From NCBI GenBank assembly GCA_963755045.1, contig CAVWIL010000007.1, positions 485,243 through 549,242 of the forward strand: 64,000 nt of DNA. Reading direction: 5' to 3'. Positions within the stretch are counted from its first letter, which is position 1. Every line of letters begins with the position of its first letter. A program made the translations under genes and the position numbers. Below are positions 7,626 to 49,464 of the stretch, in pieces. Below the pieces are notes generated by a model that made no database searches, was not told the DNA's origin, and saw only the letters and a list, made by a program, of their open reading frames with translations. Origin of the DNA: Nitrospirota bacterium (GTDB lineage: Bacteria > Nitrospirota > UBA9217).

Positions 7626-7774
7626 GATTAACACGGAATGACACATCCTGCACTCGCGTTACCACTCGTAAACGCTGGGCGCAGGCTGATTGAAATAAAT
7701 AAGGACTCAATCTTGAATTCTTATCCGTGCTCATCGATGTACATCCGCGGTGAAAATGAATTTATTTATGGTTC
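7626..7774 (+). repeat. dispersed intergenic repeat family R1, copy a (carries a ~40-bp insertion relative to copy b)
   Basis: Shares GATTAACACGGAaTGACAC ... CTTGAATTCTTATCCGTGcTCATC ... ATGAATTTATTTATgGTTCCGG with 8656..8772. Contains an internal CACGGA/ATCCGTG inverted repeat. Confidence 0.8.
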
Positions 7775-7801
7775 CGGCTTGTCCAGGTCAGGGAGTTATT
7801 C

Positions 7802-8590
7802 ATGAACTTGCTTGAAAACCTCGAAAGAAAATTCCGGCGCTATGCCGTTCACAACGTGACCCTCTACCTTGTTCTCGGCCAGGTGCTCTTTTTTGTATTC
7901 GCCCTATCCGGCAGGTTCATCCTCGAGCGCGTAGTGCTTATCCCCGAGTATGTGCTTGCGGGTGAGTGGTGGCGGCTCATCACGTTCCTGTTCATCCCCC
8001 CAGTTACCAGCCCGATATTCGCATTTTTCGCCTGGTACCTGTTCTATCTCATGGGGAACGCACTCGAAGGCCACTGGGGGGCGTTCCGTTACAACCTCTT
8101 TCTTCTTGCCGGCTACACCATCACCGTGGCAGTATCGTTCATCATGCCCCAGTATCCGGCGACGAACGTGTTTATCGGCGGTTCCGTGTTCCTGGCCTTC
8201 GCCTTCCTGTATCCGGATTTTCAGCTGTATATCCTGTTTGTCCTCCCGGTAAAGATCAAGTGGCTGGCGCTGCTTACATGGATCGGCTATGCCTATGAGG
8301 TCCTGTTCGGCTCCTGGTCGACACGGCTGTTCGTGCTTGCCTCGATCAGCAACTTCCTTCTGTTCTTTGGAAACGATATTCTGTGGAGAATGAAGACCGG
8401 CAAACGGGTCATGGCAGCCCAGGCGAGACAGTTCTCGGGAAAAAAGGAGGCATTCCACACCTGCGCAACCTGCGGTATTACTGATCTATCTCATCCGCAG
8501 ATGGAATTTCGTTACTGCCCCGAATGCGGCGGGCTCGGGTACTGCAAGGACCATATCCTGAGCCATGTGCACAAACGTAAATCCGGATAG
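7802..8590 (+). CDS. rhomboid-like polytopic membrane protein with C-terminal zinc-ribbon (CxxC...CxxC)
   Basis: Six predicted TM helices, a GGS motif in TM4, and C-terminal CATCG ... CPECG. The His of the rhomboid dyad is not obvious, so it may be catalytically inactive. Confidence 0.45.
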   Translation: MNLLENLERKFRRYAVHNVTLYLVLGQVLFFVFALSGRFILERVVLIPEYVLAGEWWRLITFLFIPPVTSPIFAFFAWYLFYLMGNALEGHWGAFRYNLFLLAGYTITVAVSFIMPQYPATNVFIGGSVFLAFAFLYPDFQLYILFVLPVKIKWLALLTWIGYAYEVLFGSWSTRLFVLASISNFLLFFGNDILWRMKTGKRVMAAQARQFSGKKEAFHTCATCGITDLSHPQMEFRYCPECGGLGYCKDHILSHVHKRKSG

Positions 8591-8655: not shown

Positions 8656-8772
8656 GATTAACACGGATTGACACTGATTGATAAAAATAAGAACTATATC
8701 TTGAATTCTTATCCGTGTTCATCAGTGTGCATCCGTGGCAAATATGAATTTATTTATCGTTCCGGTTTGTTT
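8656..8772 (+). repeat. dispersed intergenic repeat family R1, copy b
   Basis: About 85-90% identical to 7626..7774 outside the indel. Contains AACACGGAT ... ATCCGTGTT, a 9-bp stem. Confidence 0.8.
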
Positions 8773-21261: not shown

Positions 21262-21498
21262 TCCGTGGGAGCGACTATCTTTGAGGCTGTTTGGAAAGCA
21301 GAGGGTGTCTCTCTCGCCTTTCATTTAAATCCCCTCTTCAAAAGTTGAAAAATGCAACAAAAAAGTCTTTCCCTGATGACTCTTTTTTCATCGGTACATT
21401 CGGAAGGACTCCATCCTACTTGACATTACTATAAAATCGCGCTTTCCTTTAATTGTGAGATGATTCTTAACGCAGTCTGTTAAGAAAGGAGATTTATT

Positions 21499-22053
21499 AT
21501 GGCAAAGCGTGAAGATAAGAAACTTGACCTGAATGAGGTCATGGAGATATACAGGAAGGTCGGAACTCCGGGTGCTCCTCATAAACTGCTGTCAAAACTG
21601 GTGGGCAGTTGGAACACGAGATCCAGGGGGTGGGAGGAACCTGATAAGCCACCGAGAAAATCGCTCGGCACCTGTGAACAGACGCTGATCCTGGACGGCC
21701 ATTACCTGCGGCAGGAGTATACAGGCGACATGATGGGAGTGCCATTCACCGGTATCAACATCCTGGGGTATAACAACCATACGAAGAAGTATGAGTCGAT
21801 CTGGATCGATTCGCTGAACACAGCCATCTACTATTTCGTAGGTACTGCAAGCCCGGACGGCAGGATCATCACGCAGGAATGCAGCTATGACGACCCGGTG
21901 AGGGGTCCCAGTGTCTGGCGCAGTGTAACGAAGATCAAGGATGACAATACCCAGGAGTTCGAGATGTTCATTACTCCCAAAGGAGGCAAGGAAGAGAAGA
22001 TGATGGAGATGACGGTTACACCCAAAGTAGCCGACGTTCGCAAGGCAGCATAG
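21499..22053 (+). CDS. DUF1579 family protein
   Basis: LVGSWNT ... GTCEQTLILDGHYLRQEYTGDMMGVPFTGINILGYNN pattern recalled for DUF1579. Good RBS AAGGAG. Confidence 0.5.
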   Translation: MAKREDKKLDLNEVMEIYRKVGTPGAPHKLLSKLVGSWNTRSRGWEEPDKPPRKSLGTCEQTLILDGHYLRQEYTGDMMGVPFTGINILGYNNHTKKYESIWIDSLNTAIYYFVGTASPDGRIITQECSYDDPVRGPSVWRSVTKIKDDNTQEFEMFITPKGGKEEKMMEMTVTPKVADVRKAA

Positions 22054-22131
22054 GCAACATGCAATGTAATAGGCCGGAGAAAGGCTTCTTCTCCGGCTTT
22101 GATGTTCTCTGCTGACAAAGGGGGTGATCCC

Positions 22132-22659
22132 ATGAAAGCACTATTCATAAGCGCGGACACATATGAGGACTCGGAGCTTCTTGTTCCCTACTATCGGTTG
22201 CTTGAAGAAGGGCTCGAGGTGGACATCGCGTCCATGAAGAAACAGCCTATTAAAGGCAAACACGGCTATAAGGTCGAGGTGACCAAAACCCTGGCGGAGG
22301 TCAAGCCGGAGGACTATGACATTCTGGTGCTTCCCGGAGGCAAGGCACCTGAAGCGGTGCGAAAGGAGAGGAAAGCGGTGGAGATCGCGAAAGATTTCTT
22401 TATGAAGGGAAAGCCTGTCGCCGCCATCTGTCACGGACCGCAGACGCTTATCACAGCAGGCTTATTGAAAGGCAGGCACGCCACCTGTTACCGGACCGTC
22501 GTGGACGAATTGAAGGCAGCCGGTGCGATCTACGAGGACAAAGAGGTGGTTGTTGACGGCAATCTTGTAACCTCGCGTCAGCCCTCGGACCTTCCCGCAT
22601 TCATGCGGGAGACCATGAAGATGATATGCAGCATTGAGCAAAAGTCGAAAGCTGCATAA
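22132..22659 (+). CDS. DJ-1/PfpI family intracellular protease/glyoxalase
   Basis: ATG 22132 after an AAGGGGG RBS. Nucleophile elbow AICHGP, LPGG. Confidence 0.8.
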   Translation: MKALFISADTYEDSELLVPYYRLLEEGLEVDIASMKKQPIKGKHGYKVEVTKTLAEVKPEDYDILVLPGGKAPEAVRKERKAVEIAKDFFMKGKPVAAICHGPQTLITAGLLKGRHATCYRTVVDELKAAGAIYEDKEVVVDGNLVTSRQPSDLPAFMRETMKMICSIEQKSKAA

Positions 22660-22784
22660 TCATGTAGCCGCAGAAAGGCACACCCTGCACTTGCTGGTCC
22701 CGAGGCTTTGCAGTTTCATAACTCAACGCGTAACTCACGCACGCTTTGAGTTTTAGCTAGGAGCCATTCCCTAAGAATGAGATG

Positions 22785-23243
22785 TCAGAATGGCTCAACC
22801 TGGATACGATTTCCCTCAAGACGTACTTCGGACACTCCGGTTTCATCGTCATTCAAGTCGCGTGTGCTGACCTTGGCCACGCCCGAAAATTCGTTGTCTC
22901 CAGGCCGGGGAGTGATATGTATTCGAGTCTTGGTGCTTCCGATCCACTTTCTGTCTTGATCGAATCGAAACGCAATATAGGTGGCATCAAATTCCCTATC
23001 CCCGACCCGCTTCCAGGCACCATGCCCTCCACTGAGTACCGGATGCGTATCCCCGCTTCGAAAAAACGTTCCATCCGACGAAAATGTAAGGAGGTTCTTT
23101 CCCACACCAGACGGGCGACTGGCTGTCACGATCCACGCCCCGACCAATCCTCGGCTCGTTTCGCCAGGAGCACCAAGAGATGAGCAACCGGCAACGAGCA
23201 GTGTAATCATCGCGGTGAAAAGATTGTATTGGATCTTGATCAT
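22785..23243 (-). CDS. hypothetical lipoprotein
   Basis: Lipobox LLVAGCSS. No family recognised. Confidence 0.45.
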   Translation of the reverse strand: MIKIQYNLFTAMITLLVAGCSSLGAPGETSRGLVGAWIVTASRPSGVGKNLLTFSSDGTFFRSGDTHPVLSGGHGAWKRVGDREFDATYIAFRFDQDRKWIGSTKTRIHITPRPGDNEFSGVAKVSTRDLNDDETGVSEVRLEGNRIQVEPF

Positions 23244-23484
23244 GGTTATCTCCCTTTATTATGACTGCCCCAACCTCTATCAACCATCTTTGTTTCCCAC
23301 AGGCCCTTACCAGTTACCATACAATGTCTCACTATATGATTCCTCCATGGTAACGGGCAAGAGGTGTCTCCTATGCTGAGACTGCGGGAGGGTAAAGCTG
23401 TTCTGCCTTCGAACAAATCTTGTCGTAAACTTGTATTTGCAGTGCACAATCCGCAATCCGAAATTCGAAATCAACAATCGACAA

Positions 23485-24042
23485 TTACCTGCTTCCTACG
23501 GTCTCTACCCACGTCGCAAAGGCAAGCATAAACTTCCTGGCAAATTCACGGGTCGATTCATTGACAAGGCTGCCGTGCTCGTCGAAGAGATCCGCGGCTT
23601 GCCCGATGTAAGCTTCCGGCTGTTGCATGGCCGGCATATTCAGGAACACCATCGATTGTCTCAAATGGTGGTTCGCGCCAAAACCGCCGATGGCGCTGGG
23701 CGAAACACTGACTACGGCACCCGTTTTTCCATCCCACGCACTTTTGCCATAGGGACGGGAACCCACATCAAGAGCGTTCTTGAGCGCTCCAGGAACTGAA
23801 CGGTTGTATTCAGGCGTGACGAACAGGACACCGTCAACATTCCTTATGCGTTCACGGAACTCGGTCCAGGCGGCCGGCGGATTGTCTTCACTGTCCTGAT
23901 TGTAGAGCGGAAGACCTCCGATCTCGATGAGTTCGAGTTTGAGAGAACCGGGCGAAAGCTTCATCAGCTCCTTTGCCATTTTGCGAGTGAATGATTCCTT
24001 TCGAAGGCTTCCTACAAGAACAGCGATTATTTTCTGTGCCAT
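23485..24042 (-). CDS. NAD(P)H-dependent FMN reductase family protein
   Basis: IIAVLVGSLRKESF ... LFVTPEYN motifs of the flavodoxin-like FMN reductase family. Confidence 0.8.
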   Translation of the reverse strand: MAQKIIAVLVGSLRKESFTRKMAKELMKLSPGSLKLELIEIGGLPLYNQDSEDNPPAAWTEFRERIRNVDGVLFVTPEYNRSVPGALKNALDVGSRPYGKSAWDGKTGAVVSVSPSAIGGFGANHHLRQSMVFLNMPAMQQPEAYIGQAADLFDEHGSLVNESTREFARKFMLAFATWVETVGSR

Positions 24043-24078
24043 TGCATCCTCCCTGCCAACAGGAAAGCGATTCCTCCG

Positions 24079-24594
24079 CTACTTGTTCTGTCCTGCGCCT
24101 TGCTTCTTGGAGACTTCAAGACTGAGCGCTGCCGATATGGTTTGGTTTACGTTGAGACGACAGATTGCCAGGGCCGTGATTGATGGCCCCTTGACTTTGT
24201 TCGCCGGCATGCAATGGAGGTCGCGAAGGCTGTTCCCTTCCGCCGTGCATTTGCCTTCGCCGAGAATCGCCAGGCGGACCTTTTTGACGAGATCAATTGT
24301 TTTTTCATTCTTGGGGATTGCGTTCACGCGAAATTCGAGGCGGCGCAGCTGCTGGGCGATGTCACTATAAAAAGCCTGGTGCTTGCTGAAGGCGGCCTTA
24401 TTCGTCCCCGATTGCGTGAGCAGCGTTTCGATGAAGTCATCGGTTTTTTCTTGGATGGTCGTTAGGCTTTTGTCGGTCACCTCGTCATAGTCGGAAATCA
24501 GCTTGACTCCCGCGCACCCAGCCAGCAGGATTGCGCAAAGGATGGCGACCCAATACGTGGGAACCCGATTTCTCGATAAAGACACTTTATTCAT
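24079..24594 (-). CDS. hypothetical lipoprotein
   Basis: Signal peptide with lipobox LLAGCAG. No family recognised. Confidence 0.4.
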   Translation of the reverse strand: MNKVSLSRNRVPTYWVAILCAILLAGCAGVKLISDYDEVTDKSLTTIQEKTDDFIETLLTQSGTNKAAFSKHQAFYSDIAQQLRRLEFRVNAIPKNEKTIDLVKKVRLAILGEGKCTAEGNSLRDLHCMPANKVKGPSITALAICRLNVNQTISAALSLEVSKKQGAGQNK

Positions 24595-25138
24595 AATATC
24601 CTCCTGCACGCAACGGGTGAAATAACATCCGCAAAGTTTCTTGTCGGTGTTCTGTTCTCAATGTTCCGGCCATGGCATCCGCAAAGCATACTATCTCAAA
24701 TTTCAAGTTTTGGTCCTGTCCCTTCGTGCCAGGTCCCGTGTGATTAGGGAAGCGATGTCCTCCACGGCATGGGGGTACGGGGGTACTCACGTGCCGGCGA
24801 ACTTTGTCTCATGGTCTCTGTTCCTTTCTACGCTTTTGATCTGTCCGATTGATCAGGGACTTTTTCAAATGCATCTCAGGCGGCTTGTTATGAAGTATAC
24901 CATACATTCCCCTTATGTCCTTCGTTGAAGCTGCTCTTAAAATTTCGACCCACAACGGGTGCAACGGGGCTAGCACCCTTATAACGTTATCAGCATTTTT
25001 ACTGCCCACGCCGTGAGCCATTTTGGGGCTGGTTAATAACCATGAGACCTGAACAATCATTTGGACACGGCCTGGAACCGAAGATTTTCTGGTCCGTCAT
25101 AAGACGTAATGGGTCAATGGATCAATGTTGTACCATGC

Positions 25139-25315
25139 TGACCTTAATCCTGATGGGCGATCCCGCCATGGCGGGATAGAGACTGACACCGAAATCCCGC
25201 CAAGGCGGCACAATGGTACGGATGAAGATAACGGAAAGGCTCGACGAGAAACGTGCCGTTTCTCGCCACAAGATAGCTTTTCCCCTTGACGGTGCCCTTT
25301 AAATGGATGACCCTA
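25139..25315. repeat. structured inverted-repeat element, copy A (outer terminus TGACCTTAATCCTGATGGG); left boundary of the adhesin cassette
   Basis: About 85% identical to the reverse complement of 31491..31667. Three internal palindromes: CCCGCCATGGCGGG, CCGCCAAGGCGG, GAGAAACGtgcCGTTTCTC. Confidence 0.85.
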
Positions 25316-25544
25316 TCGCCTCCTTCCTTGATTTGTGCTTGGTTTCCCGTTTTCTTTTTCGAATCAAGCAATTGTTACTGTTTTATTTGTCTGGCCTATT
25401 TTGATGATTATGCCTTTTTTGATAATTTTTATCTCATTTTTATCATAGTAAATAACATGAACTTATGAGTACGTCAAAGGCGCCTCTGTGACTTTTTAAT
25501 TCTATAATAAGTTTCTTTTGCCTGCTCTTCGCCATTAAATAGTC

Positions 25545-25589
25545 AAAAAAAGGCCAGACATGACTGTCTGGCCTTCTCAAATTTTTTTA
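25545..25589 (-). terminator. intrinsic terminator downstream of the giant adhesin gene (A-tract, GGCCAGACA-loop-TGTCTGGCC, T-tract; potentially bidirectional)
   Basis: Perfect 9-bp GC-rich stem flanked by A7 and T7 runs, 14-30 nt after the stop codon at 25603. Confidence 0.8.
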
Positions 25590-25602
25590 ACTGCGCAGGA
25601 CA

Positions 25603-28600
25603 TCACTTGAAATATGCGTTGATGATGTGGTTCGCCATGATGTTCGTGAAGGTGAAGCTGGTTAGTGCACCCCTATTTGCACCGTCAACGATCACGCTCC
25701 GCACTTGCCGACCTGTATTCGGTGTGATCGTATAGGTCTGGCTGGCGCCTTTGTTCACCGTCGTTGTACCCGATGGTGTGATGCTTCCGTTGACGTCCGC
25801 TGCCGCTGTTATGATATAGACGTTCAGCATGAAGGAAGCACTGATCGTGTGGTTTCCCTGAACATTAGAGAAGGTGTACGAGGTCGGCGCCCCTACTGAT
25901 GCCCCGTCCACCTGAACGTCGGCCACGCGATAGCCCGCGGCAGCGGAGAATGTAAACTTCTGGCTTGCGCCACTCAGCACTGTCAACGTGCCAGGAGATA
26001 TGGTGCCGTTCGCTCCCGCGCTAGCCGTGATTGTGTACGACGGATTCGTTCCAAATGTCGCCGAAATCGTGTGGTTGCCAGTTAAGTTCGTAAAGGCATA
26101 CGTAGCCACGGCACCGACCGACGCTCCATCAACGAGGACATCCGTGATACGGTATCCTGCTGTAGGCGTGATGGTGTAGATCTGGCTGGCACCAATGTTC
26201 AAAGTGTTAGTGCCCAACGGCGATATGCTCCCCCCTGCTCCTGCACTGGCCGTAATGGTATAGGTAATGACCTTGAAATAGGCGTTGATGGCATGGTTCG
26301 CCGTAATGTTCGCAAAGGTGTAGCTGGTTATTGCACCCCAGTTCGCGCCGTCAACAAACACGCTCAGCACCTGATATCCTTGATTCGGCGCGATCGTATA
26401 GGTTTGGCTGTTTCCCTTGTTCACCGTTGTCACGCCCGACGGCGTTATGCTGCCGTTGACGTCGGCTGCAGCCGTAACGGTATAGACATCCAGGGTATAG
26501 GCTGCACTGATCGTGTGTGGCGTTTGGACGTTGTAGAAGGTGTACGAGGTTGGCGCTCCTACTGATACCCCGTCAACCAGAACGTCGGCCACGCGGTACC
26601 CCATATTCGGCGTGATGGTGTAAGTCTGGTTTGTGAACTCCGGCACGGATGCCGTGCCTGTCGGCGATATGCTGCCATTCGGCCCCCCACTGGCAGTGAT
26701 GTTGTAATACAGTATCAGGGTAAATGTCGCCGAGATGGAGTGGTCCTGTGTTATATTGGCAAAGGTATATGCCGTCAAGGGACCAGCAGATGTTCCGTCA
26801 ATGTTCACATCGACTATCCGGTACCCCGCATTTGGCGTGATGGTGAATGTCTTGTTGGTGCCGCCCAGCACTGACACGTTGCCCGACGGTGACAAGGTGC
26901 CGTTAGCTCCGGCGCTGGCCGTGATGGTGTATGATGGATTCGCTTCAAATGTCGCCGCAATCGTGTGGTTGGCCATTACGTTCGTGAAGGTATATGTGGT
27001 CGCCGCGCCGACTGACACCCCGTCGACCTGGACATCCAGGATATGATACCCGGCCGTGGGCGTTATGGTGTAGGTCTGGGTGGTACCAATGTTCAACGTG
27101 GTCGTGCCCAAGGGCCATGTTATGCTCCCCCCGCTCCCGCACTGACCGTGATGGTAAACGTCTTCACCTTGAAGTATGCGTTGATGGTGTGGTTCGCCGT
27201 AATGTTCGTAAAGGCGTAGCTGGTAATTGCACCCTTGCTTGAGCCGTCAACAACCACGTTCTGCACATCGTACCCTGCATCCGGGATGATCGTGTAGGTG
27301 GGGCTGTCCCCCTTGTTCACCGTTATCGTGCCCAACTGCGTTATGCTGCCGTTGACGTCGGCTGTAGCCGTAACGGTATAGACATCCAGGGTAAAGGTCG
27401 CGCTGATCGTGTGGTCCGTCTGGACGTTGGAGAACGTGTACGAGGTAAGCGCACCTACTGAGACCCCGTCAACCAGAACGTCAGCTACGCGGTACCCCGC
27501 ATTCGGCGTCATGGTGAATGTCTTCCTGGTGCCGCCCACCACAGACACGTTGCCCGACGGCGACAAGGTGCCGTTCGGTCCGGCGCTTGCCGTGATGGTA
27601 TACGATGGATTCGCTTCAAATGTCGCCGCAATCGTGTGGTTGCTCGTTACGTTCGTAACGGTATACGTGCTCACCGCGCCGACTGACACCCCATCGACCT
27701 GGACATCCAGGATATGGTACCCGGCCGTGGGCGTTATGGTGTAGGTCTGAGTGGTACCAATGTTCAACGTGGTCGTGCCCAAGGGCCATGTTATGCTCCC
27801 CGCTCCCGCACTGACCGTGATGGTAAACGTCTTCACCTTGAAGTACGCATTGATAGTGTGGTTCGCCGTAATGTTCGCAAAGGTGTAGCTGGTTATTGCA
27901 CCACTATTTGCACCATCAACGATCACGCTCCGCACATCGTAACCTGCATCCGGGATGATCGTGTAGGTGGGGCTGTCTCCCTTGTTCACCGTTGTCACGC
28001 CCGACGGCGTTATGCTGCCGTTGACGTCGGCTGCAGCCGTAACGGTATAGACATCCAGGGTAAAGGTCGCGCTGATCGTGTGGTCCGTCTGGACGTTGGA
28101 GAACGTGTACGAGGTAAGCGCACCTACTGAGACCCCATCAACCAGAACGTCAGCTACGCGGTACCCCGCATTCGGCGTCATGGTGAATGCTCCATTCCCC
28201 CCGGTGGGGACGGTCACAGCGCCTGACGGCCTGATGCTGCCGTTTGGTCCGGCTGTGGCAGTCAAAGTAGGAGCGGCCGTAGTCATGGTGAATATCTGAG
28301 TTCTTACGGTTTCGGCGTTCCCGGCATTATCAGTCGAGGCGAATCTCAGATCAGTTGATTTTAATATTGTAAAAGCCCCACGGTATAAGGTTGCCGGGGT
28401 ACAACCGGTGCCGAGGCAATAGTAGGTAGTGTTGCAGCCGGTCTCACCGCCGTCATTGCAGTTCAAAGTAATGCGCTGGGCAGCGCTATACGTCCCTCCT
28501 GCGGGTGATGCCGTTGTTATTGGCGGAGTGGTGTCTGATACCGGATTCGCTCCGAACGTTGCCGCTATGGTCATGTCGGCAGTGATGTTGCCTATGGTGT

Positions 28601-30577
28601 AGGAGGTGTAGGCACCTACTGAGCTCATACCTCCTGCTGCCGGTCCAGCTTTCACGTCTAAAACCTGAGACCCTATACCTGGCGTTATGATGCATTCTGA
28701 GCTCGAGTTGTAGCCCACCGAGGTTGGGACGCACGAGATACGGCCGGAGCCAAGTTTCAAATCCCCTAGCACAGTGGCCTGACCTTGATCATTGCGGCCC
28801 CAGGCGACCACGGTCCCGTCGCTCTGCAGGGCCGCGGTATGATACGCTCCTGCCGCCATTACGATAACCCTGTTTAGGCCAGCCGGCACGGTGCTCTCAC
28901 CGTACGTGTTATCGCCCCAAGCGACCACGGTCCCGTCGCTCCTAAGGGCAACGGTATGATATGTTCCTGAGGATATAGCAATGACACCTGCGATGCCCGC
29001 AGGCACGGCGCTCTCGCCATATAGGTTACCGCCCCAGGCGACCACGGTGCCGTCGCTCTTCAAGGCCACGGTATGATACGCCCCTGCCGCTATTGCGGTA
29101 ACACCGCTAAGGCCAATGGGCACGGCGCTCTCGCCGTAAGTGTTACCGCCCCAGGCGACTACGGTGCCGTCGCTCTTCAGGGCCACGGTATGATGCGCTC
29201 CTGCCGCTACTGCAGTAACATCGCTTAGGCCAACCGGCACGGCGCTCTCGCCGTAAGTGCTATCGCCCCAGGCGACTACGGTGCCATCGCTCTTCAGGGC
29301 CACGGTATGAGACCCTCCCGCCGCTATGTAGGCAACATTCGTCAGGCCCGCCGGCACAGTGGTCTGACCTTGATCATTCTTGCCCCAGGCCGCCACGGTC
29401 CCGTCGCTCCTAAGGGCCACGGTATGGCCCCCTCCCGCCGCTACCGCGGTAACACCGGTGAGACCGGGTGCCACGGCACTCTCACCGTACGAGTTATCGC
29501 CCCAGGCGACCACCGTCCCGTCGCTGTTCAGGGCTACAGTATGACTATCTCCTGCTGCTATGGCCGGTGTGTTTGTCGTTACGCGGTATCTGGTTATAAG
29601 GTTAAGGCCGGCAGGCGGAGTGCCCTCACCGTATGAGTTCCTTCCCCAGACCTCCACGGTGCCGTCGCTCTTCAAGGCCACCGAATGTTCTTTTCCTGCC
29701 ATTAGAGCAGTAACACCGATGAGATCAACAGGCACGATGCTCTCACTGTAAGTATTATCACCCCAAGCCGCGACGGTACCATCGCTCTTTAGAACTGCCG
29801 TATGATTCGTTCCGGGTGCGATAGCTACAACACCTGTAAGGCCCGCAGGCACATTGCACTGACCCTCCACGTTCCTGCCCCAGGTGACAATAGTCCCATC
29901 CGTCTTCAGAGCGACCGAATGATACCCCCGGCTGCGATACCGGCAACACCGGTAAGACCGGCAGGCACAGTGCTCTCACCGTTTGCGTTATAGCCCCAGG
30001 CCACCACTGTCCCGTCGCTCTTCAGGGCCAGCGTATGATACCCTGCTGCCGCTATTGCGATCACGTCAGTCAGACCGACAGGCACATTGCTCTGACCTTG
30101 ATCGTTATAGCCCCAGGCCACCACTGTCCCGTCGCTCTTCAGGGCCACGGTATGATAGGCACCAGCTGCTATGGCTGTAACGCCGGAAAGGTACGGAGGA
30201 ACCGAGATCTGACCGTAAAGGTTTTGGCCCCAGGCCACCACCGTCCCGTCATTCTTCAAGACTACTGAATGATATGCCCCTGCTGATACAGCGGTGACAC
30301 CAGTAAGGCCAGCAGGAACATCAGTTTGCCCATAATAGTCATAACCCCAGGCCGCCACCGTCCCGTCGCTCTTTAGGGCCACGGTATGATAAAAACCTAT
30401 TGCTATTGCAGGCTGTGTGAACAACATCGTGATTTCGGCCGATACCGGTCTTCCGATTAGCAAAAGAGCGATGGCAAGCGTCATGACCGGAAGCCATGCT
30501 TTTCTGCGTATCTCTTGTTTGAACCGCCTTGTGATATCGTTCTCTCTCGTTCCGCGCCGTGCGCCCCACTCCTCCAT
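25603..30577 (-). pseudogene. giant secreted/cell-surface repeat protein: N-terminal signal anchor, ~16 RCC1 repeats, then ~12 tandem near-identical divergent InlB B-repeat (Ig-like) modules. Split into three ORFs by two frameshifts in poly-G/C runs.
   Basis: ORFs 29906..30673, 27120..29870 and 25603..27111 continue one another. RCC1 repeats read ALKSDGTVVAWG. C-terminal modules read TYTITPNAGYRVADVLVDGVSVGA ... YTFSNVQTDHTISATF. The frame breaks sit at CCCCC 29925-29929 and CCCCCC 27127-27132. ATG 30577 has a GGGGAG RBS. Confidence 0.8.
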
Positions 30578-31016
30578 AGTGCTCTCCCCTCTCAAATATC
30601 TGTTTCGCCTGCAAGGCAATGCATCTTGTCCCGGCATAACGTTTTCAGCTCCCACCAAAAACATGAATATCATCCTAACAGTGATACTGGTTCTGAAGAC
30701 CGTTACATTCCCTGTAAGATTTCCTTTTTTTCAAGACAATCGGTCATCCGATGCCCGTCAGCAAAAAGAAAAAAATAAAGCAGCTTGGATGCCGATGAAC
30801 GCAATAGTACTGATTCGATTTTTTGAGATGAGTAAAAACCGGGATAGAATGCTTTGTTATGGATTTAAATGGGCAGAGTAAACAGATGCTTCAATAATAT
30901 TAAAATAGCATAGTAATGAAATTCATGTCAATACATATTTTATTTATAGCGGCCGCGATTAGCACTACGATTTCCCTGACCACCGGCAAGCTCTATCGGG
31001 CATGGGAGGCGTCCCG

Positions 31017-31056
31017 CTCTTGTGTCCAGGGTACCGGGTTCGCTACAACCAGTACT
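31017..31056 (+). repeat. 40-45-bp direct repeat (copy 1) in the AT-rich region upstream of the adhesin gene
   Basis: CTCTTGTGTCCAGGGTACCGGGTTCGCTACAACCAGTACT matches 31292..31336 (ATCTTGTGTCCACGGTATACCGGGTGCGCTACACGAGCGGGTACT). Confidence 0.6.
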
Positions 31057-31291
31057 ATCGCAGTTCTACTACAAGTATTAAGACTGACCGCACTAAATTA
31101 ATATACTTCTTCATATTATGCCGTATTTTCTGATTAATTCCTTAATAAAGCAAAATTTATACCAATAATTAGCATATTGAATTTATACATAATTTAATTT
31201 GTTTTTTTTGAATTATTATATAATGTAAGAAAATCCGACAATATTTGCACCCTCAATGAATCACTCCGCTGATGGCAGCCGTGTAAGTTTT

Positions 31292-31336
31292 ATCTTGTGT
31301 CCACGGTATACCGGGTGCGCTACACGAGCGGGTACT
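31292..31336 (+). repeat. 40-45-bp direct repeat (copy 2) upstream of the adhesin gene
   Basis: See copy 1. The two copies bracket about 230 bp of AT-rich DNA at under 30% GC. Confidence 0.6.
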
Positions 31337-31490
31337 AAATCGGCATAACCGTTAAGACGGTCCGCTCCTGGGACATGCGGGGTGGGGTGAGAAGCGAACC
31401 AACCTGCCGATTCCGGCGATGGGGGAAACACAAAAAGCATTGATCCTTTTCGCTTTCCAAAAGTTCCCAGGACCCGACAGGGGACCTGAC

Positions 31491-31667
31491 AGGGGCACCC
31501 ATTTAAAGGGCACCGTCAAGCGAAAAAAGCTATCTTGTGACGAGAAACGAAACGTTTCTCGTCGAGCCTTTTCGTTAGCCTCAGCCTTAGCATTGTCCCG
31601 CCTCGGCGGGATTTCGGTATCAGTCTCTATCCCGCCATGGCGGGATCACCCATCAGGATTAAGGTCA
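31491..31667. repeat. structured inverted-repeat element, copy B (inverted relative to copy A); right boundary of the adhesin cassette
   Basis: Reverse complement aligns to 25139..25315 over about 177 bp. Palindromes are preserved: CGACGAGAAACGaaaCGTTTCTCGTCG, CCCGCCtcGGCGGG, CCCGCCATGGCGGG. Confidence 0.85.
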
Positions 31668-31717
31668 TTGGTGAAGCGCTTTATCCATTGACACTTTCCG
31701 CCTTCTGGCGGACCATA

Positions 31718-31815
31718 GGCTTTTGGGGGACGTAGTGACCGAGATGAACTTATTCTTTTTCTGCAAGTGTTAAGTGCATTTAATCAACTTCGGTCATTAC
31801 GTCCCCTTTCGGTCC
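31718..31815 (+). repeat. dispersed repeat family R2, copy a (long hairpin GGGGACGTAGTGACCGAG ... CTTCGGTCAtTACGtCCCC)
   Basis: About 90% identical to 32721..32818. Overlaps the 3' end of the PilZ gene. Confidence 0.8.
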
Positions 31816-32511: not shown

Positions 32512-32720
32512 TATGTAACTCCAATTGCTATCGTCTCCGATTTCGTATTGATGACGAGGACGGGTACAACTTCAGGAAGGTCATCGCACATGTTTTAATA
32601 TTAACACTTCTATAGCGAATTGCAAGACTCAGACTATCTCATGTCAAGCTAAAATAATAATGTCCGGTTTTTAAGGAACAGTAATTGGCTGTTCCTGGTT
32701 TATTCGTTTTGGCTTATGCA

Positions 32721-32818
32721 GGCATTTGGGGGACGTAGTGACCGAGATGAACGTATTCTTTTTCTGTAAGTGTTAAGTGCATTTAATCCACTTCGGTCAC
32801 TACGGCCCCTTTCGGTCC
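32721..32818 (+). repeat. dispersed repeat family R2, copy b
   Basis: GGCaTTTGGGGGACGTAGTGACCGAGATGAAC.TATTCTTTTTCTG.AAGTGTTAAGTGCATTTAATC.ACTTCGGTCA.TACG.CCCCTTTCGGTCC is shared with copy a. Confidence 0.8.
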
Positions 32819-35595: not shown

Positions 35596-36910
35596 AACTT
35601 GTAAAGAGTTTTGTGTAAATGACCTTTCGGTTTAGGGTGGCGGCATTCTTGTCTCGAAGATAATCGTAAACTGATTCAGAGCCGACTTCCAGTCATGGAT
35701 CGGCATGGTCCATTTCTTCGAGACGTTCATCATGGCCAAGTATAGCAGTTTCGTCATGGCTTCGTCGTTTGGGAAGGAGCCTCGGTTCTTCGTTACCTTC
35801 CGGAGCGACATGTTCATTGATTCGATGGCGTTGGTCGTGTAGATGGCCTTCCTGATTTCCGGCGGATAGCCAAAGAGCGGAATGATCCGCTCCCAGTTGT
35901 TCCGCCAGGATTTGGAGATCGTCGGATGACTCGCATCCCATTTATTGGCGAAGGCAATTAAGTTGGCGTCTGCCTGATCGACCGTGGGCGCGTGATAGAT
36001 ACCCTTAAGGTCTGCAGCTACTTCCTTGCGCTGCTTCCAGGAAACATAGCGCAGGCTGTTGCGGACCATATGGACGATGCACAGCTGAACCTGAGTATCC
36101 GGAAATACCGCTTCTATCGCTTCGGGAAAGCCTTTGAGGCCGTCTACACAGGCGATGAAGATGTCCTTGACGCCCCGGTTCTTGAGTTCCGTTATTATTT
36201 GGAGCCAGAATTTAGCTCCCTCGGTCTCAGCGATCCACATGCCGAGGATGTCTTTTGTTCCGTCCCAGGTCACGCCGATAGCAAGGTAGACAGCCTTATT
36301 GATCACCGAGCCATTGTGCCGCACCTTAACCCGGACCGCGTCCAGGTACATGATAGGGTAGACCTCTTCGAGGGGACGGTTCTGCCACAGCGTGATTTCC
36401 TCGGTAATTGCATCGGTGACTTGAGAGACAAGCGCGGGCGATATTTCGACCCCGTACATTTCATGAAGATGCGCCTGGATGTCTCGGGTGGTCATCCCGC
36501 GAGCGTACATCGAGATGATCTTGTCGTCAAAGCCGGCGAATCGTGTCTCCCCTTTGGGAATGATCACCGGTTCGAAGGTCGAGTTCCGGTCCCGGGGGAC
36601 GGCGATTTCCATGTTGCCGAACTCGCCTTTGATGGTTTTCTTTGACTTGCCGTTCCGGGAATTGCCGCTCTTCTTTCCGGCCGGATCATGCTTATCATAG
36701 CCAAGATGAGCGGTCATCTCCGCTTTCATGGCTCTTTCCACAAGTGCTTTGGTTAGTTGCTTCAGAAGTCCGTTATCTCCTATGAGATCTTCGGGCTTCC
36801 TGTAGTTCTTCATTAAATCGTCGAGCAGTTCGTCTGTCGTGGCCATTGGTTCCTCCAGTTCGGTTGATTATACCGACTCTGGCCACTTACACAAATTATT
36901 TTACAGGCTC
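35596..36910 (-). mobile_element. IS256-family insertion sequence (about 1.3 kb), apparently intact, with imperfect ~30-bp terminal IRs and a 9-bp target-site duplication TTTCACTGG
   Basis: TTTCACTGG occurs at 35587-35595 and 36911-36919. Ends share TTTGTGTAA(A/G)TG(A/G)CC. A single Mutator-type transposase ORF lies inside. Confidence 0.85.
35632..36846 (-). CDS. IS256 family transposase (Mutator-like DDE)
   Basis: Full-length 404 aa with canonical IS256 motifs (YLDAVRVKVR, CVDGLKGFPEAI, YTTNAIESMN). Confidence 0.95.
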   Translation of the reverse strand: MATTDELLDDLMKNYRKPEDLIGDNGLLKQLTKALVERAMKAEMTAHLGYDKHDPAGKKSGNSRNGKSKKTIKGEFGNMEIAVPRDRNSTFEPVIIPKGETRFAGFDDKIISMYARGMTTRDIQAHLHEMYGVEISPALVSQVTDAITEEITLWQNRPLEEVYPIMYLDAVRVKVRHNGSVINKAVYLAIGVTWDGTKDILGMWIAETEGAKFWLQIITELKNRGVKDIFIACVDGLKGFPEAIEAVFPDTQVQLCIVHMVRNSLRYVSWKQRKEVAADLKGIYHAPTVDQADANLIAFANKWDASHPTISKSWRNNWERIIPLFGYPPEIRKAIYTTNAIESMNMSLRKVTKNRGSFPNDEAMTKLLYLAMMNVSKKWTMPIHDWKSALNQFTIIFETRMPPP

Positions 36911-43239: not shown

Positions 43240-43262
43240 GGGACGTAGTGACCGACATGGAC
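43240..43262 (+). repeat. partial third copy of repeat family R2 (GGGACGTAGTGACCGAcATGgAC)
   Basis: 22/23-nt match to the left arm of the R2 hairpin. Confidence 0.5.
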
Positions 43263-43300
43263 TTTCGTTGTTCCACTTGATCTTTTATATCCTCGCCTGT

Positions 43301-48586: not shown

Positions 48587-49464
48587 TTGACAACCTCCTT
48601 AAGGTAAATAGTGTGGGTATCTTTTCGCGCAGACTCAGAAAACCTCTTAGGGCCTGGTCTTTCTCCGGAAACATACAGGACGTTGATAATGCACAGCACA
48701 GTGCAAAAAAACCTTGTCTTCATTGGCAACTGTTTTTAATGCACAAATTTGCCGGGGGTGGATAGGGGGTCAGATGATGCTGACCGATTATATTACACAG
48801 CCTGTTTTTGTCAAGGATTTCATTACAAGAAACGTGTTGTTTGAATGCAGATTTGAACCAGCGTATAATCCCAGAAACCTGATTGGGGTCTGTCATGAAT
48901 CATCTGTTCTCAGAAGGTTGTCTAAGCTGGCACTGATCCATGTGTGCATTGGTTTTTTGGGCAGCTCATCACTCGGCCACGCAGCATGCCGGAAATTTAC
49001 AGTATCTGCGCGCTGATATGCAGGTCTCGCATCACTCCACCCGCGCCCTTTTAAAAAGGGCGCGGCCGTGTCTGCCTTGTCTTGTTCTCGTAAGTACGAT
49101 CTGTGCAGCATTGCTATGCGTGTCTTTCGCTCAGAGCTACCCGGCGCAGGGAACGGCAGAACTTAAAAGGCTTACCCCACTCAGTGGCGAATTAACCTCT
49201 ACGGGGTTTGGGGAGAGACTTATATCTTTGCCTTTCCAGAAGCCCCTGCATCCCATGAACAGGTAAACCCAGCTTTGGGACTTATCTTCTTCAGGTCCAT
49301 GAATCACTCATTATGTATACACATTATACTGAGTTGCGGCTACATTGTCAGGGTTTTCGGCACGGCAGGTGGTTCATTTTGTAATGGGTGAGATAAGGTC
49401 ACGGGGTTAAATCTTCATTCGTTTCATTCACTCGCACCTGAGGTCTTGCGGCTTGACATCCCCC

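What the first reader, a model, noticed from the sequence alone, without database searches (positions are those of the whole stretch)
25139..31667. 6.5-kb cassette bounded by ~177-bp structured terminal inverted repeats, carrying only a giant repeat adhesin with its own promoter region and terminator
Two copies of a 177-bp element (about 85% identity) sit in inverted orientation. Their identical outward-facing termini read TGACCTTAATCCTGATGGG. Each copy keeps three internal palindromic hairpins, with sequence changes that preserve pairing.

Between them lie, in order: an intrinsic terminator, one about 5-kb surface-protein gene, and a very AT-rich upstream region with its own direct repeats. 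There is no transposase inside.

This is the architecture of a non-autonomous, IR-bounded mobile or recombination cassette. The alternative is a pair of MITE-like elements that happen to bracket a horizontally acquired adhesin. I do not recognise the IR sequence as a known IS end.
Basis: seen in the sequence. Interest (0 to 1): 0.8.

Follow-up and report, generated by a model that had tools for sequence, protein, structure and literature searches.

The report
Decayed insertion-sequence tails flanking an adhesin gene
The two inverted repeats are not the ends of a mobile cassette: they are transposase-less leftovers of the guide-RNA tail of an ordinary IS1111-type (IS110 family) insertion sequence common in Nitrospirota, sitting on either side of a strain-variable surface-protein gene.

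Summary
The inverted repeat is real, but it is longer than reported: about 228 nt at 85% identity, 25090-25317 against 31488-31715.

In 14 loci a ~340-aa IS110-family RNA-guided transposase lies immediately upstream of the element.

The complete element is a 1.51-1.54 kb IS1111-type insertion sequence. It has subterminal inverted repeats, a ~410-nt 3' non-coding region with covarying hairpins (the expected seekRNA/bridge-RNA region), and ends that would form a promoter when joined.

The window's left copy (24975-25314) matches IS positions 1202-1536. The right copy (31491-31720, minus strand) matches positions 1314-1536. Both lack the transposase and the left end. Both true IS right ends point inward at the adhesin, and the outer edges are truncations.

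Copies in other genomes are solitary in all but one block, and about half are likewise truncated. Each window copy has a closer relative in a different context.

Four related contigs carry an "empty site", with PilZ and the lipoprotein gene 70 nt apart. So 24712-31716 is a strain-variable islet, with no target duplication.

Verdict: IS relics, ordinary, low novelty.

The parts
24975..25314 (+). Left IS relic. It is the 3' non-coding (seekRNA-type) region plus right end of an IS1111-type insertion sequence (profile positions 1202-1536 of 1536). No transposase and no left end. The right end faces the adhesin's 3' end.
   Evidence: nhmmer with a profile of the full-length IS, E = 8.7e-72. blastn to 20+ Nitrospirota loci at 72-88% identity, always starting at 24974-24981. 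Alignment to full-length copies.
31491..31720 (-). Right IS relic, a shorter fragment of the same region (profile positions 1314-1536). Its right end (near 31491-31496) faces the adhesin's upstream region. Its truncated outer edge abuts the 99-bp repeat R3a.
   Evidence: nhmmer E = 3e-44. 85% identical to the left relic. 97-98% identical to a copy in a different context, L034.
25139..25157 (+). It is an internal block of the IS non-coding region and is nearly invariant. The second copy is at 31649-31667 on the minus strand.
   Evidence: Nearly invariant columns in the 26-sequence alignment. Exact matches in 30 genome blocks, 25 of them with IS homology.
25291..25305 (+). Right-hand subterminal inverted repeat of the IS (GGTGCCCTTTAAATG). 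Its partner in the right relic is at 31500-31514. TTGACG, just upstream, is the -35 half of the promoter inferred to form when the IS ends join.
   Evidence: Left end versus reverse-complemented right end in full-length copies matches 15 of 16 positions. Joining the ends gives TTGACA-17/18-GATAAT. TAAAGGGCACC occurs only at these two places in the window.
25095..25267 (+). Structured part of the relic. Hairpin 1 is at 25095-25106. The lineage-specific CCCGCC palindromes (25159-25177 and 25194-25208) replace the 5' half of canonical hairpin 2. Hairpin 3 plus a T-rich tail is at 25242-25267.
   Evidence: Per-copy folds. Covariation count on alignment A3. The variant block is shared only by winL, winR, L001, L033 and L034.
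25603..30673 (-). Large surface-protein ('adhesin') gene. It encodes an N-terminal hydrophobic segment, about 13 or more RCC1 repeats, a chitobiase C-terminal-like domain and many InlB B-repeats. It is read in three frames because of two 1-nt shifts in G5/G6 runs.
   Evidence: ORFs and translations. Pfam RCC1_2 4.5e-90, Flg_new_2 8e-27, CHB_HEX_C_1 3e-06. Frameshift contexts.
25541..25573 (-). Intrinsic-terminator-like hairpin plus T7, downstream of the adhesin stop codon.
   Evidence: Read directly from the sequence.
30674..31490 (-). AT-rich (about 42% GC) upstream region of the adhesin, with sigma-70-like matches such as TTGACA-18-TATTTT at 30931-30902.
   Evidence: Composition. Promoter scan found 7 sites against 2.5 expected.
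24712..31716 (.). Strain-variable 7,005-bp segment: 263 nt of unknown origin, the left relic, the adhesin and the right relic. In four related metagenome contigs it is replaced by 70 unrelated nt.
   Evidence: L036 137-1175 matches window 32728-31717 (94%) and L036 1246-1872 matches window 24711-24085 (97%). L035, L037 and L038 give the same result.
31717..31815 (.). 99-bp repeat R3a, with 17-nt inverted arms. A second copy, R3b, lies at 32720-32818, so the two bracket the PilZ gene. R3a abuts the truncated edge of the right relic, and R3 copies coincide with synteny breakpoints.
   Evidence: Self-blast at 94%. Alignment. Breakpoints at 31717 and 32728 against L035-L038.

Best explanation
**What the repeats are.** The two repeat arms are decayed fragments of an IS1111-type member of the IS110 family of RNA-guided insertion sequences. 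This IS is widespread in Nitrospirota.

**The intact element (1.51-1.54 kb)** consists of:
- a left end, TGATAAT followed by CATATAAAGGGCACC;
- a ~340-aa DEDD transposase;
- a ~410-nt 3' non-coding region that folds into conserved hairpins and, by analogy with studied IS1111 members, encodes the seekRNA/bridge RNA that guides the transposase to its target;
- a right end, GGTGCCCTTTAAATG followed by GGTG.

**What the window holds.** Only the distal 340 nt (left copy) and 226 nt (right copy) of that tail survive. Each runs to the true right end, and each has lost the transposase and the left end.

**How the arrangement arose.**
- Shown: the two relics are convergent, with their right ends facing the adhesin gene between them.
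- Inferred: two separate insertions of related IS variants landed beside the adhesin locus in a recombination-prone region. That region also holds an IS256 transposase, a toxin-antitoxin pair and small R3 repeats. Both IS copies then lost their outer parts by deletion or rearrangement.
- Inferred: the 7-kb block is present or absent among close relatives because of homologous exchange through the conserved PilZ and lipoprotein flanks, not because the repeats act as transposon ends.

**Mobility.** Lacking a left end, the relics cannot be excised by the IS1111 left-end/right-end circle mechanism. At most they are substrates for rare homologous inversion.
For: **The transposase neighbour.** In 14 loci a 325-356 aa ORF ends 70-97 nt upstream of the region homologous to window 24974-25316. 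That ORF hits PF01548 DEDD_Tnp_IS110 at 7e-19 and PF02371 at 1.3e-11. It also hits NCBIfam NF033542 'IS110 family RNA-guided transposase' at 170 bits, above the 140-bit cut-off.

**IS boundaries.** Pairs of copies in one genome define the boundaries: L013/L027 are 99.8% identical over 1524 bp, and L016/L020 are similar.

**Family hallmarks.**
- The subterminal inverted repeat matches at 15 of 16 positions, with 7 nt outside it on the left and 3-4 nt on the right.
- The long non-coding region lies downstream of the transposase.
- Joining the ends gives TTGACA-17/18-GATAAT.
- These match the IS1111 description in PMC11187229.

**Profile mapping of the window copies.** They map to IS positions 1202-1535 and 1314-1536. 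There is no transposase remnant (tblastn) and no left end.

**Structure.** Three hairpins covary across 26 copies.

**A guide-like match.** The variable segment CCTAAAGAA in L013 equals its own left flank, CCCCTAAAGAAG|TGATAAT.

**Distribution.** The 19-mer hits 30 blocks, 25 of which show IS homology. All but one hold a single copy. About 12 are transposase-less or internally deleted copies that keep the right end.

**Independent histories.** The right copy is 98% identical to L034, which sits next to a methyltransferase. The left-type copy sits beside a lipoprotein homologue in L033. Left versus right is only 85%.

**Empty site.** Present in four contigs.
Against: - The two window copies share a derived block, the CCCGCC palindromes that replace half of canonical hairpin 2. 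Only L033 and L034 also carry it, and no transposase-bearing copy of this variant was found. So the active parent has not been seen, and mobilisation of transposase-less modules in trans cannot be excluded.
- The right edge of the 7-kb indel coincides exactly with the outer edge of the right relic. That is a coincidence under simple decay.
- A left-type relic lies next to the lipoprotein gene in an 88%-diverged relative, yet its flanks on both sides are unrelated to the window's. This is not explained.
- The rest of this organism's genome was not available, so copy number and pairing within it are unknown.
- The probe 19-mer lies in the retained part of the IS. The excess of right-end-retaining fragments is therefore partly an ascertainment effect.
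Confidence: 0.85

Rival explanations
1. Mobilisable solo guide-RNA modules. Under this reading the transposase-less copies are MITE-like elements carrying the seekRNA region and right end. They hitch-hike on a transposase supplied in trans, as proposed for ssr9/MITEPpu9 of ISPpu9, and two of them landed on either side of the adhesin.
For: - About half of the recovered copies lack the transposase but keep an intact right end.
- The CCCGCC-palindrome variant occurs in at least three different contexts, never with a transposase.
- The left relic begins at a motif (CACCCTTATAACGTTATCA) that resembles an inverted left end. Two other truncations, in L009 and L012, fall within 22 nt of it.
- There is a precedent in PMC12288879.
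Against: - The left boundaries are heterogeneous: profile positions 879, 955, 989, 1076, 1202, 1224, 1264, 1288, 1300, 1314, 1358, 1365 and 1400. A defined mobile module would share one boundary.
- No left-end-like box in the correct orientation is present at any boundary.
- The probe biases recovery toward right-end fragments.
- The right relic's boundary is simply where repeat R3a starts.
Confidence: 0.08
2. The inverted repeats are the terminal inverted repeats of a non-autonomous cassette that moves or recombines as one unit and carries the adhesin as cargo.
For: - Relatives lack the adhesin and both repeats together.
- One indel edge coincides with the outer edge of the right repeat.
Against: - The repeats are IS tails whose real ends point inward.
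- The outer edges are unequal truncations.
- The left indel edge lies 263 nt outside the left repeat.
- There is no target duplication, and 70 unrelated nt occupy the empty site, so the difference is a replacement rather than an insertion.
- The only block from another genome that holds two copies has them in direct orientation, so no inverted pair was seen.
- The arms are 15% diverged, and each has a closer relative elsewhere.
Confidence: 0.03
3. Inversion switch. The inverted relics serve as recombination sites, either for RecA or for a trans-acting IS110/Piv-type recombinase guided by the relic-encoded RNA. Recombination flips the 6.2-kb adhesin segment for phase variation.
For: - The relics are in inverted orientation around a surface-protein gene.
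- Piv invertases belong to the same DEDD family (stated in PMC11187229).
- The right relic's outward-reading end points the same way as the adhesin gene.
Against: - The whole gene, with its own AT-rich upstream region and terminator, lies inside the segment, so flipping would not obviously change expression.
- The only other strain sampled (L001) has the same orientation.
- The arms are 85% identical, and the longest perfect run is 28 nt.
- No recombinase gene of this family is in the window.
- No -10-like hexamer follows the TTGACG at the right relic's junction (sequence).
Confidence: 0.03

Closest known systems
IS1111-group insertion sequences of the IS110 family (IS1111, ISEc11, ISPa11, ISKpn4, IS4321/IS5075) and their seekRNA/bridge RNA (Siddiquee et al. 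2024, PMC11187229)
   Same: The full-length relatives have a DEDD transposase with the Transposase_20 domain. They also have subterminal inverted repeats with a 7-nt left and a 3-4-nt right extension, a long structured non-coding region downstream of the transposase, and a -35/-10 pair split between the right and left ends. No target duplication is evident.
   Different: The window copies are fragments: no transposase, no left end, only the distal tail and right end. The family here is from Nitrospirota MAGs. It has no hit in Rfam or in the plasmid collection, and only weak similarity (E about 1e-5) to the solved IS621 and ISCro4 recombinases. RNA binding and guided targeting were not tested.
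ssr9 / MITEPpu9 modules of ISPpu9 in Pseudomonas putida (Pares-Guillen et al. 2025, PMC12288879)
   Same: Transposase-less copies of the small-RNA-bearing downstream module of an IS110-family element are scattered in the genome. Some are linked to a fragment of the transposase 3' end, as in L034 here.
   Different: MITEPpu9 is flanked by A' and B' boxes that copy both IS ends, and it forms its own circles. The copies here keep only the right end and have variable 5' boundaries.
Composite transposons and MITE pairs bracketing cargo
   Same: Two related repeats lie in inverted orientation around a single cargo gene that is missing from relatives.
   Different: In a composite transposon the functional ends face outward and a target duplication flanks the unit. 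Here the functional ends face inward, the outer edges are broken, and there is no duplication.
Piv-type invertible segments (Moraxella pilin inversion)
   Same: The recombinase superfamily is the same as that of IS110 transposases, and inverted sites flank a surface-protein locus.
   Different: There is no recombinase nearby. The complete gene with its own control regions lies inside the segment, and no second orientation was observed.

Membership tests
IS1111 group / IS110 family insertion sequence | DEDD (RuvC-like) transposase with the IS110 C-terminal domain | tested here: met
   Met for the family. The ORF next to the element in 14 loci hits PF01548 (7e-19), PF02371 (1.3e-11) and NF033542 (170 bits against a 140-bit cut-off). 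Not present in the window itself (tblastn), so the window copies are relics, not functional members.
IS1111 group / IS110 family insertion sequence | Subterminal inverted repeats with short asymmetric extensions (7 nt left, 3 nt right) | tested here: met
   The left end TGATAAT|CATATAAAGGGCACC compared with the reverse-complemented right end matches 15 of 16 positions. Extensions are 7 nt and 3-4 nt in L013, L016 and L023. The window holds only the right-end half, twice.
IS1111 group / IS110 family insertion sequence | Long non-coding region downstream of the transposase gene | tested here: met
   About 400-410 nt lie between the stop codon and the right end in full-length copies. The window copies map to its distal 340 and 226 nt.
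IS1111 group / IS110 family insertion sequence | The non-coding region encodes a structured RNA (seekRNA/bridge RNA) with segments matching the target | tested here: inconclusive
   Three hairpins covary: 14 of 25 pairs changed on both sides, 0 of 500 shuffles as high. One 9-nt match links a variable segment to the left flank in L013, and 7 nt in L027. Transcription, processing and transposase binding cannot be tested with these tools.
IS1111 group / IS110 family insertion sequence | Site-specific insertion without target duplication; promoter formed at the circle junction | tested here: inconclusive
   No duplication is seen at the L013/L027 flanks, and both left flanks end in TAAAGAAG. Joined ends give TTGACA-17/18-GATAAT only if one terminal TG is shared, which is an inference. 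Circles were not observed.
MITE-like solo module (MITEPpu9 type) | Copies of both IS end boxes flank the module, with a shared left boundary among copies | tested here: not met
   No left-end-like sequence is present in the window. The 5' boundaries are scattered between profile positions 879 and 1400.
IR-bounded mobile cassette / composite transposon | Functional ends at the outer edges, flanked by a target-site duplication, with the unit recurring elsewhere | tested here: not met
   The real IS ends face inward. There are no direct repeats at 24974/31716 or at 25138/31668. No second instance of the pair was found in 25 related loci or in the metagenome scan.

The most novel reading that the evidence does not exclude
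The transposase-less tails are not dead. On this reading the CCCGCC-palindrome variant is a naturally reprogrammed orphan guide-RNA module. Two of its segments were replaced by perfectly complementary 8-mers, and it was found in at least three contexts, never with a transposase. It would be maintained or spread in trans by a transposase encoded elsewhere. Two such modules in inverted orientation could let an RNA-guided recombinase invert or exchange the adhesin islet.
Probability: 0.06. Interest if true: 0.7.

Novelty: new member of a known kind. Interest (0 to 1): 0.22.

Why it matters
It removes a candidate "new mobile cassette". What looked like structured terminal repeats is the guide-RNA tail of a known class of RNA-guided insertion sequence.

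Three by-products are modestly useful:
- an apparently undescribed IS1111-type family in Nitrospirota, with defined ends and a covariation-supported 3' RNA region that is absent from Rfam;
- the observation that many of its copies survive only as right-end/guide-RNA fragments;
- a documented presence/absence polymorphism of a large RCC1/InlB-repeat surface protein between close relatives.

If the orphan tails proved active in trans, they would be natural examples of guide-RNA-only satellites of bridge recombinases. Nothing here shows that.

Tried and rejected
- **Rfam.** The whole window at gathering thresholds gave nothing. The relic and a full IS at E up to 1 gave only a sub-threshold sroE hit of 20.5 bits against a 51-bit cut-off.
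- **Viral contig scans** with two element patterns gave 0 hits. The plasmid collection gave no match.
- **RNAalifold** on the raw MAFFT alignment gave a poor consensus. I replaced it with a hand-defined three-hairpin structure and counted pairs.
- **Antisense ORFs across the relics.** The 75-aa, 83-aa and 90-aa ORFs in the window cluster with antisense ORFs in other loci. I rejected them as coding. They cluster only because the DNA is homologous, they lie in different frames, and the alignment carries many indels that are not multiples of three.
- **An IS256-derived MITE.** A Mutator-family transposase lies at 35632-36846. It is unrelated to the repeats, which belong to the IS110 family.
- **Recent inverted duplication of one arm.** Rejected. 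The arms are 85% identical, their 5' parts resemble different sublineages, and each has a closer relative elsewhere.
- **Linking contigs L001 and L002**, from the same metagenome, to reconstruct an alternative arrangement. They share no sequence.
- **Exact-protein look-ups** for the lipoprotein and the adhesin N-terminus added no new contexts.
- **The consensus terminator scan** missed the obvious hairpin plus T7. I read it by eye instead.


Full report
**1. Observation**

The inverted repeat exists and is far beyond chance. The repeat finder reports arms 25139-25281 / 31525-31667 (143 nt, 91%), with flanking pieces 25278-25317 / 31488-31527 and 25090-25125 / 31680-31715. blastn merges them into one 228-230 nt match at 85% identity, E = 2e-69. 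There are no further copies in the 64-kb window.

TGACCTTAATCCTGATGGG is internal, not terminal.

Between the arms lie:
- a hairpin plus T7 terminator at 25573-25541 on the minus strand;
- a minus-strand gene of about 5 kb encoding RCC1 repeats, a chitobiase C-terminal-like domain and InlB B-repeats;
- an upstream region of about 800 nt at 42% GC.

The gene reads in three frames. Both shifts fall in G5/G6 runs, which is typical of long-read homopolymer errors. No transposase lies inside.

**2. What the repeat is**

One scan of 185,579 species-representative genomes with the 19-mer returned 30 eight-kb blocks.
- Twenty-five blocks show extended homology. Almost all come from Nitrospirota/Thermodesulfovibrionales MAGs.
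- Five blocks, from unrelated phyla, show none. That matches the roughly four chance hits I estimate for a 19-mer in 596 Gb.

Homology to the window's left copy always starts at 24974-24981 and ends at 25309-25316, at 72-88% identity. In 14 loci a 325-356 aa ORF on the same strand ends 70-97 nt upstream. That ORF is an IS110-family RNA-guided transposase:
- PF01548 at 7e-19 and PF02371 at 1.3e-11;
- NF033542 at 170 bits, above its 140-bit cut-off;
- only weak similarity to the solved IS621 and ISCro4 recombinases.

Copies within one genome (L013/L027, 99.8% over 1524 bp; L016/L020) delimit an element of 1512-1536 bp. Its features:
- The left end reads TGATAAT|CATATAAAGGGCACC and the right end GGTGCCCTTTAAATG|GGTG. 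This is a 15-of-16 subterminal inverted repeat with 7 nt outside it on the left and 3-4 nt on the right.
- The non-coding region downstream of the transposase is about 410 nt.
- If the ends are joined sharing one TG, they give TTGACA-17/18-GATAAT. This step is an inference.

These are the diagnostic features of the IS1111 group as described by Siddiquee et al. 2024 (PMC11187229). In that group the downstream non-coding region yields the seekRNA that guides target choice.

**3. Structure**

In a 26-copy alignment three hairpins show clear covariation: 25 pairs, 89% paired, 14 pairs with changes on both sides, and 42 such cells. None of 500 shuffles reached these values, and all slid controls were far lower.

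A variable segment of L013 (CCTAAAGAA) equals its own left flank, and 7 nt of it match the flank of its sister copy L027. That is what a target guide would look like. Rfam has no family for this region.

**4. Anatomy of the window copies**

A profile of the full IS maps the copies as follows:
- the left copy to positions 1202-1535 (24975-25308, plus strand);
- the right copy to positions 1314-1536 (31720-31496, minus strand).

There is no transposase remnant and no left end. Both true right ends therefore face the adhesin, and the outer edges are breakpoints. The right copy's breakpoint abuts a 99-bp repeat, R3a at 31717-31815, whose twin lies on the other side of the PilZ gene.

Both window copies share a derived block in which the 5' half of canonical hairpin 2 and a downstream variable segment are replaced by CCCGCC palindromes. 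A metagenome scan with a 28-mer from that block found only two more copies, both without a transposase:
- L034 maps to profile positions 1076-1536, is 97-98% identical to the right copy, and sits next to a methyltransferase.
- L033 maps to positions 1300-1536 and lies 219 nt from an 88%-identical homologue of the lipoprotein gene, with otherwise unrelated flanks.

Left versus right is 85%. Their 5' parts resemble different sublineages: the left resembles L019 and the right resembles L006/L016. The two arms are therefore not recent copies of each other.

**5. Pairing and decay elsewhere**

Of the copies recovered:
- about nine have intact transposase genes;
- two have disrupted transposase genes;
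- three run off the ends of their blocks;
- about twelve are 5'-truncated or internally deleted but keep the right end. Their profile starts are 879, 955, 989, 1223, 1224, 1264, 1288, 1288, 1353, 1358, 1365 and 1400.

Only one block holds two copies, and those are in direct orientation.

Two caveats apply. The probe lies at about position 1367, so fragments retaining only the left end could not be found. And an 8-kb block cannot show partners further away.

**6. Empty site**

PilZ homologues at 95% amino-acid identity lie on four contigs from four assemblies (L035-L038). There, PilZ plus R3 is followed after 70 nt by the lipoprotein gene.
- L036 137-1175 matches window 32728-31717 at 94%.
- L036 1246-1872 matches window 24711-24085 at 97%.

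So window 24712-31716 (7,005 bp) is absent from these relatives. The 70 nt found in its place are unrelated to anything in the window, and there is no target duplication. The difference is a replacement, not a clean insertion. Its left edge lies 263 nt outside the left relic.

Other relatives differ again:
- L002 is 99.6% identical over 21430-24827 and then diverges on both sides.
- L001 follows the window from 34265 to 29078, through the right relic and the adhesin's 5' part, and then diverges.

The neighbourhood also holds an IS256-type transposase, a ParE/PhdYeFM toxin-antitoxin pair and a 70-nt third relic of this IS at 48822-48891. This is a plasticity zone.

**7. Mechanism**

- Shown: the repeats are IS1111-type tails, they are convergent, and they lack what the IS needs to move.
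- Inferred: two related IS copies inserted independently beside the adhesin locus and then lost their transposase halves.
- Inferred: the islet is gained or lost by homologous exchange through the conserved flanks.

Rivals considered:
- Trans-mobilised guide-RNA modules, like MITEPpu9 of ISPpu9 (PMC12288879). This is not excluded, but the heterogeneous boundaries and the absence of any left-end box argue against it.
- A cassette with the repeats as termini. The inward-facing ends, the lack of a duplication and the absence of recurrence contradict it.
- An inversion switch. It has no support: the orientation is the same in L001, and the gene carries its own control regions.

**8. Verdict**

This is a known kind of element, probably a new member family of the IS1111 group, present here as relics. 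Interest is low. The only intriguing residue is the shared palindromic variant that has never been seen with a transposase.

Noticed in passing
window 31717-31815 and 32720-32818 (partial third copy at 43240-43264): A 99-bp repeat (R3, 94% identical) with 17-nt inverted arms brackets the PilZ gene as direct repeats. Its copies coincide with synteny breakpoints against related contigs (31717 and 32728). A short R3-like stretch (ACACGGGACC...GGGAC) also sits at the left edge of the 7-kb indel, around 24712-24745; I saw this last point by eye only.
   Followed up: partly
window 7686-7782 and 8674-8770: A second, unrelated 97-bp direct repeat (84.5% identical) brackets a 262-aa ORF (7802-8590) that has no Pfam hit. 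The architecture mirrors R3 around PilZ.
   Followed up: no
window 48822-48891 (minus strand): A 70-nt fragment matches profile positions 69-151 of the same IS (the 5' untranslated region and the first codons of the transposase), nhmmer E = 9.7e-5. It is a third, tiny relic.
   Followed up: no
window 29925-29929 and 27127-27132: Both frame breaks in the adhesin gene lie in G5/G6 homopolymers. The related contig L001 has its frame break at a different place (around window 30025). These are probably sequencing errors, but slipped-strand variation is not excluded.
   Followed up: partly
window 21430-24827 versus L002: A 3.4-kb block (DUF1579, DJ-1/PfpI, a 152-aa ORF, FMN reductase and the lipoprotein gene) is 99.6% identical to a metagenome contig whose flanks on both sides are unrelated to the window. 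This suggests recent exchange or rearrangement of the block.
   Followed up: partly
L035 638-3089 (relatives of the window, upstream of PilZ): Where the window has the ParE/PhdYeFM pair, the related contig L035 has a Y1 (IS200/IS605-type) transposase and a different 430-aa IS110-family transposase directly upstream of the R3-PilZ module.
   Followed up: no
L035-L038 versus window 23485-24609: The relatives carry a 509-aa PAS-HisKA histidine kinase between the lipoprotein and FMN-reductase genes, and TTHB210-like plus NmrA genes after the reductase. The window lacks all three.
   Followed up: no
IS profile positions ~1126-1222 (e.g. L013 1690-1790; alignment): The first ~100 nt after the transposase stop codon are highly conserved (GGGACGG...CCGTCCC stem). 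They end in a motif resembling an inverted copy of the left end (CACCCTTTTATATCGTTATCA). The window's left relic starts exactly there, which may hint at a modular IS structure.
   Followed up: partly
window 35632-36846 (minus strand): An intact-looking Mutator/IS256-family transposase (PF00872, 6.5e-127) lies about 4 kb from the right relic. The related contig L001 ends near it.
   Followed up: no
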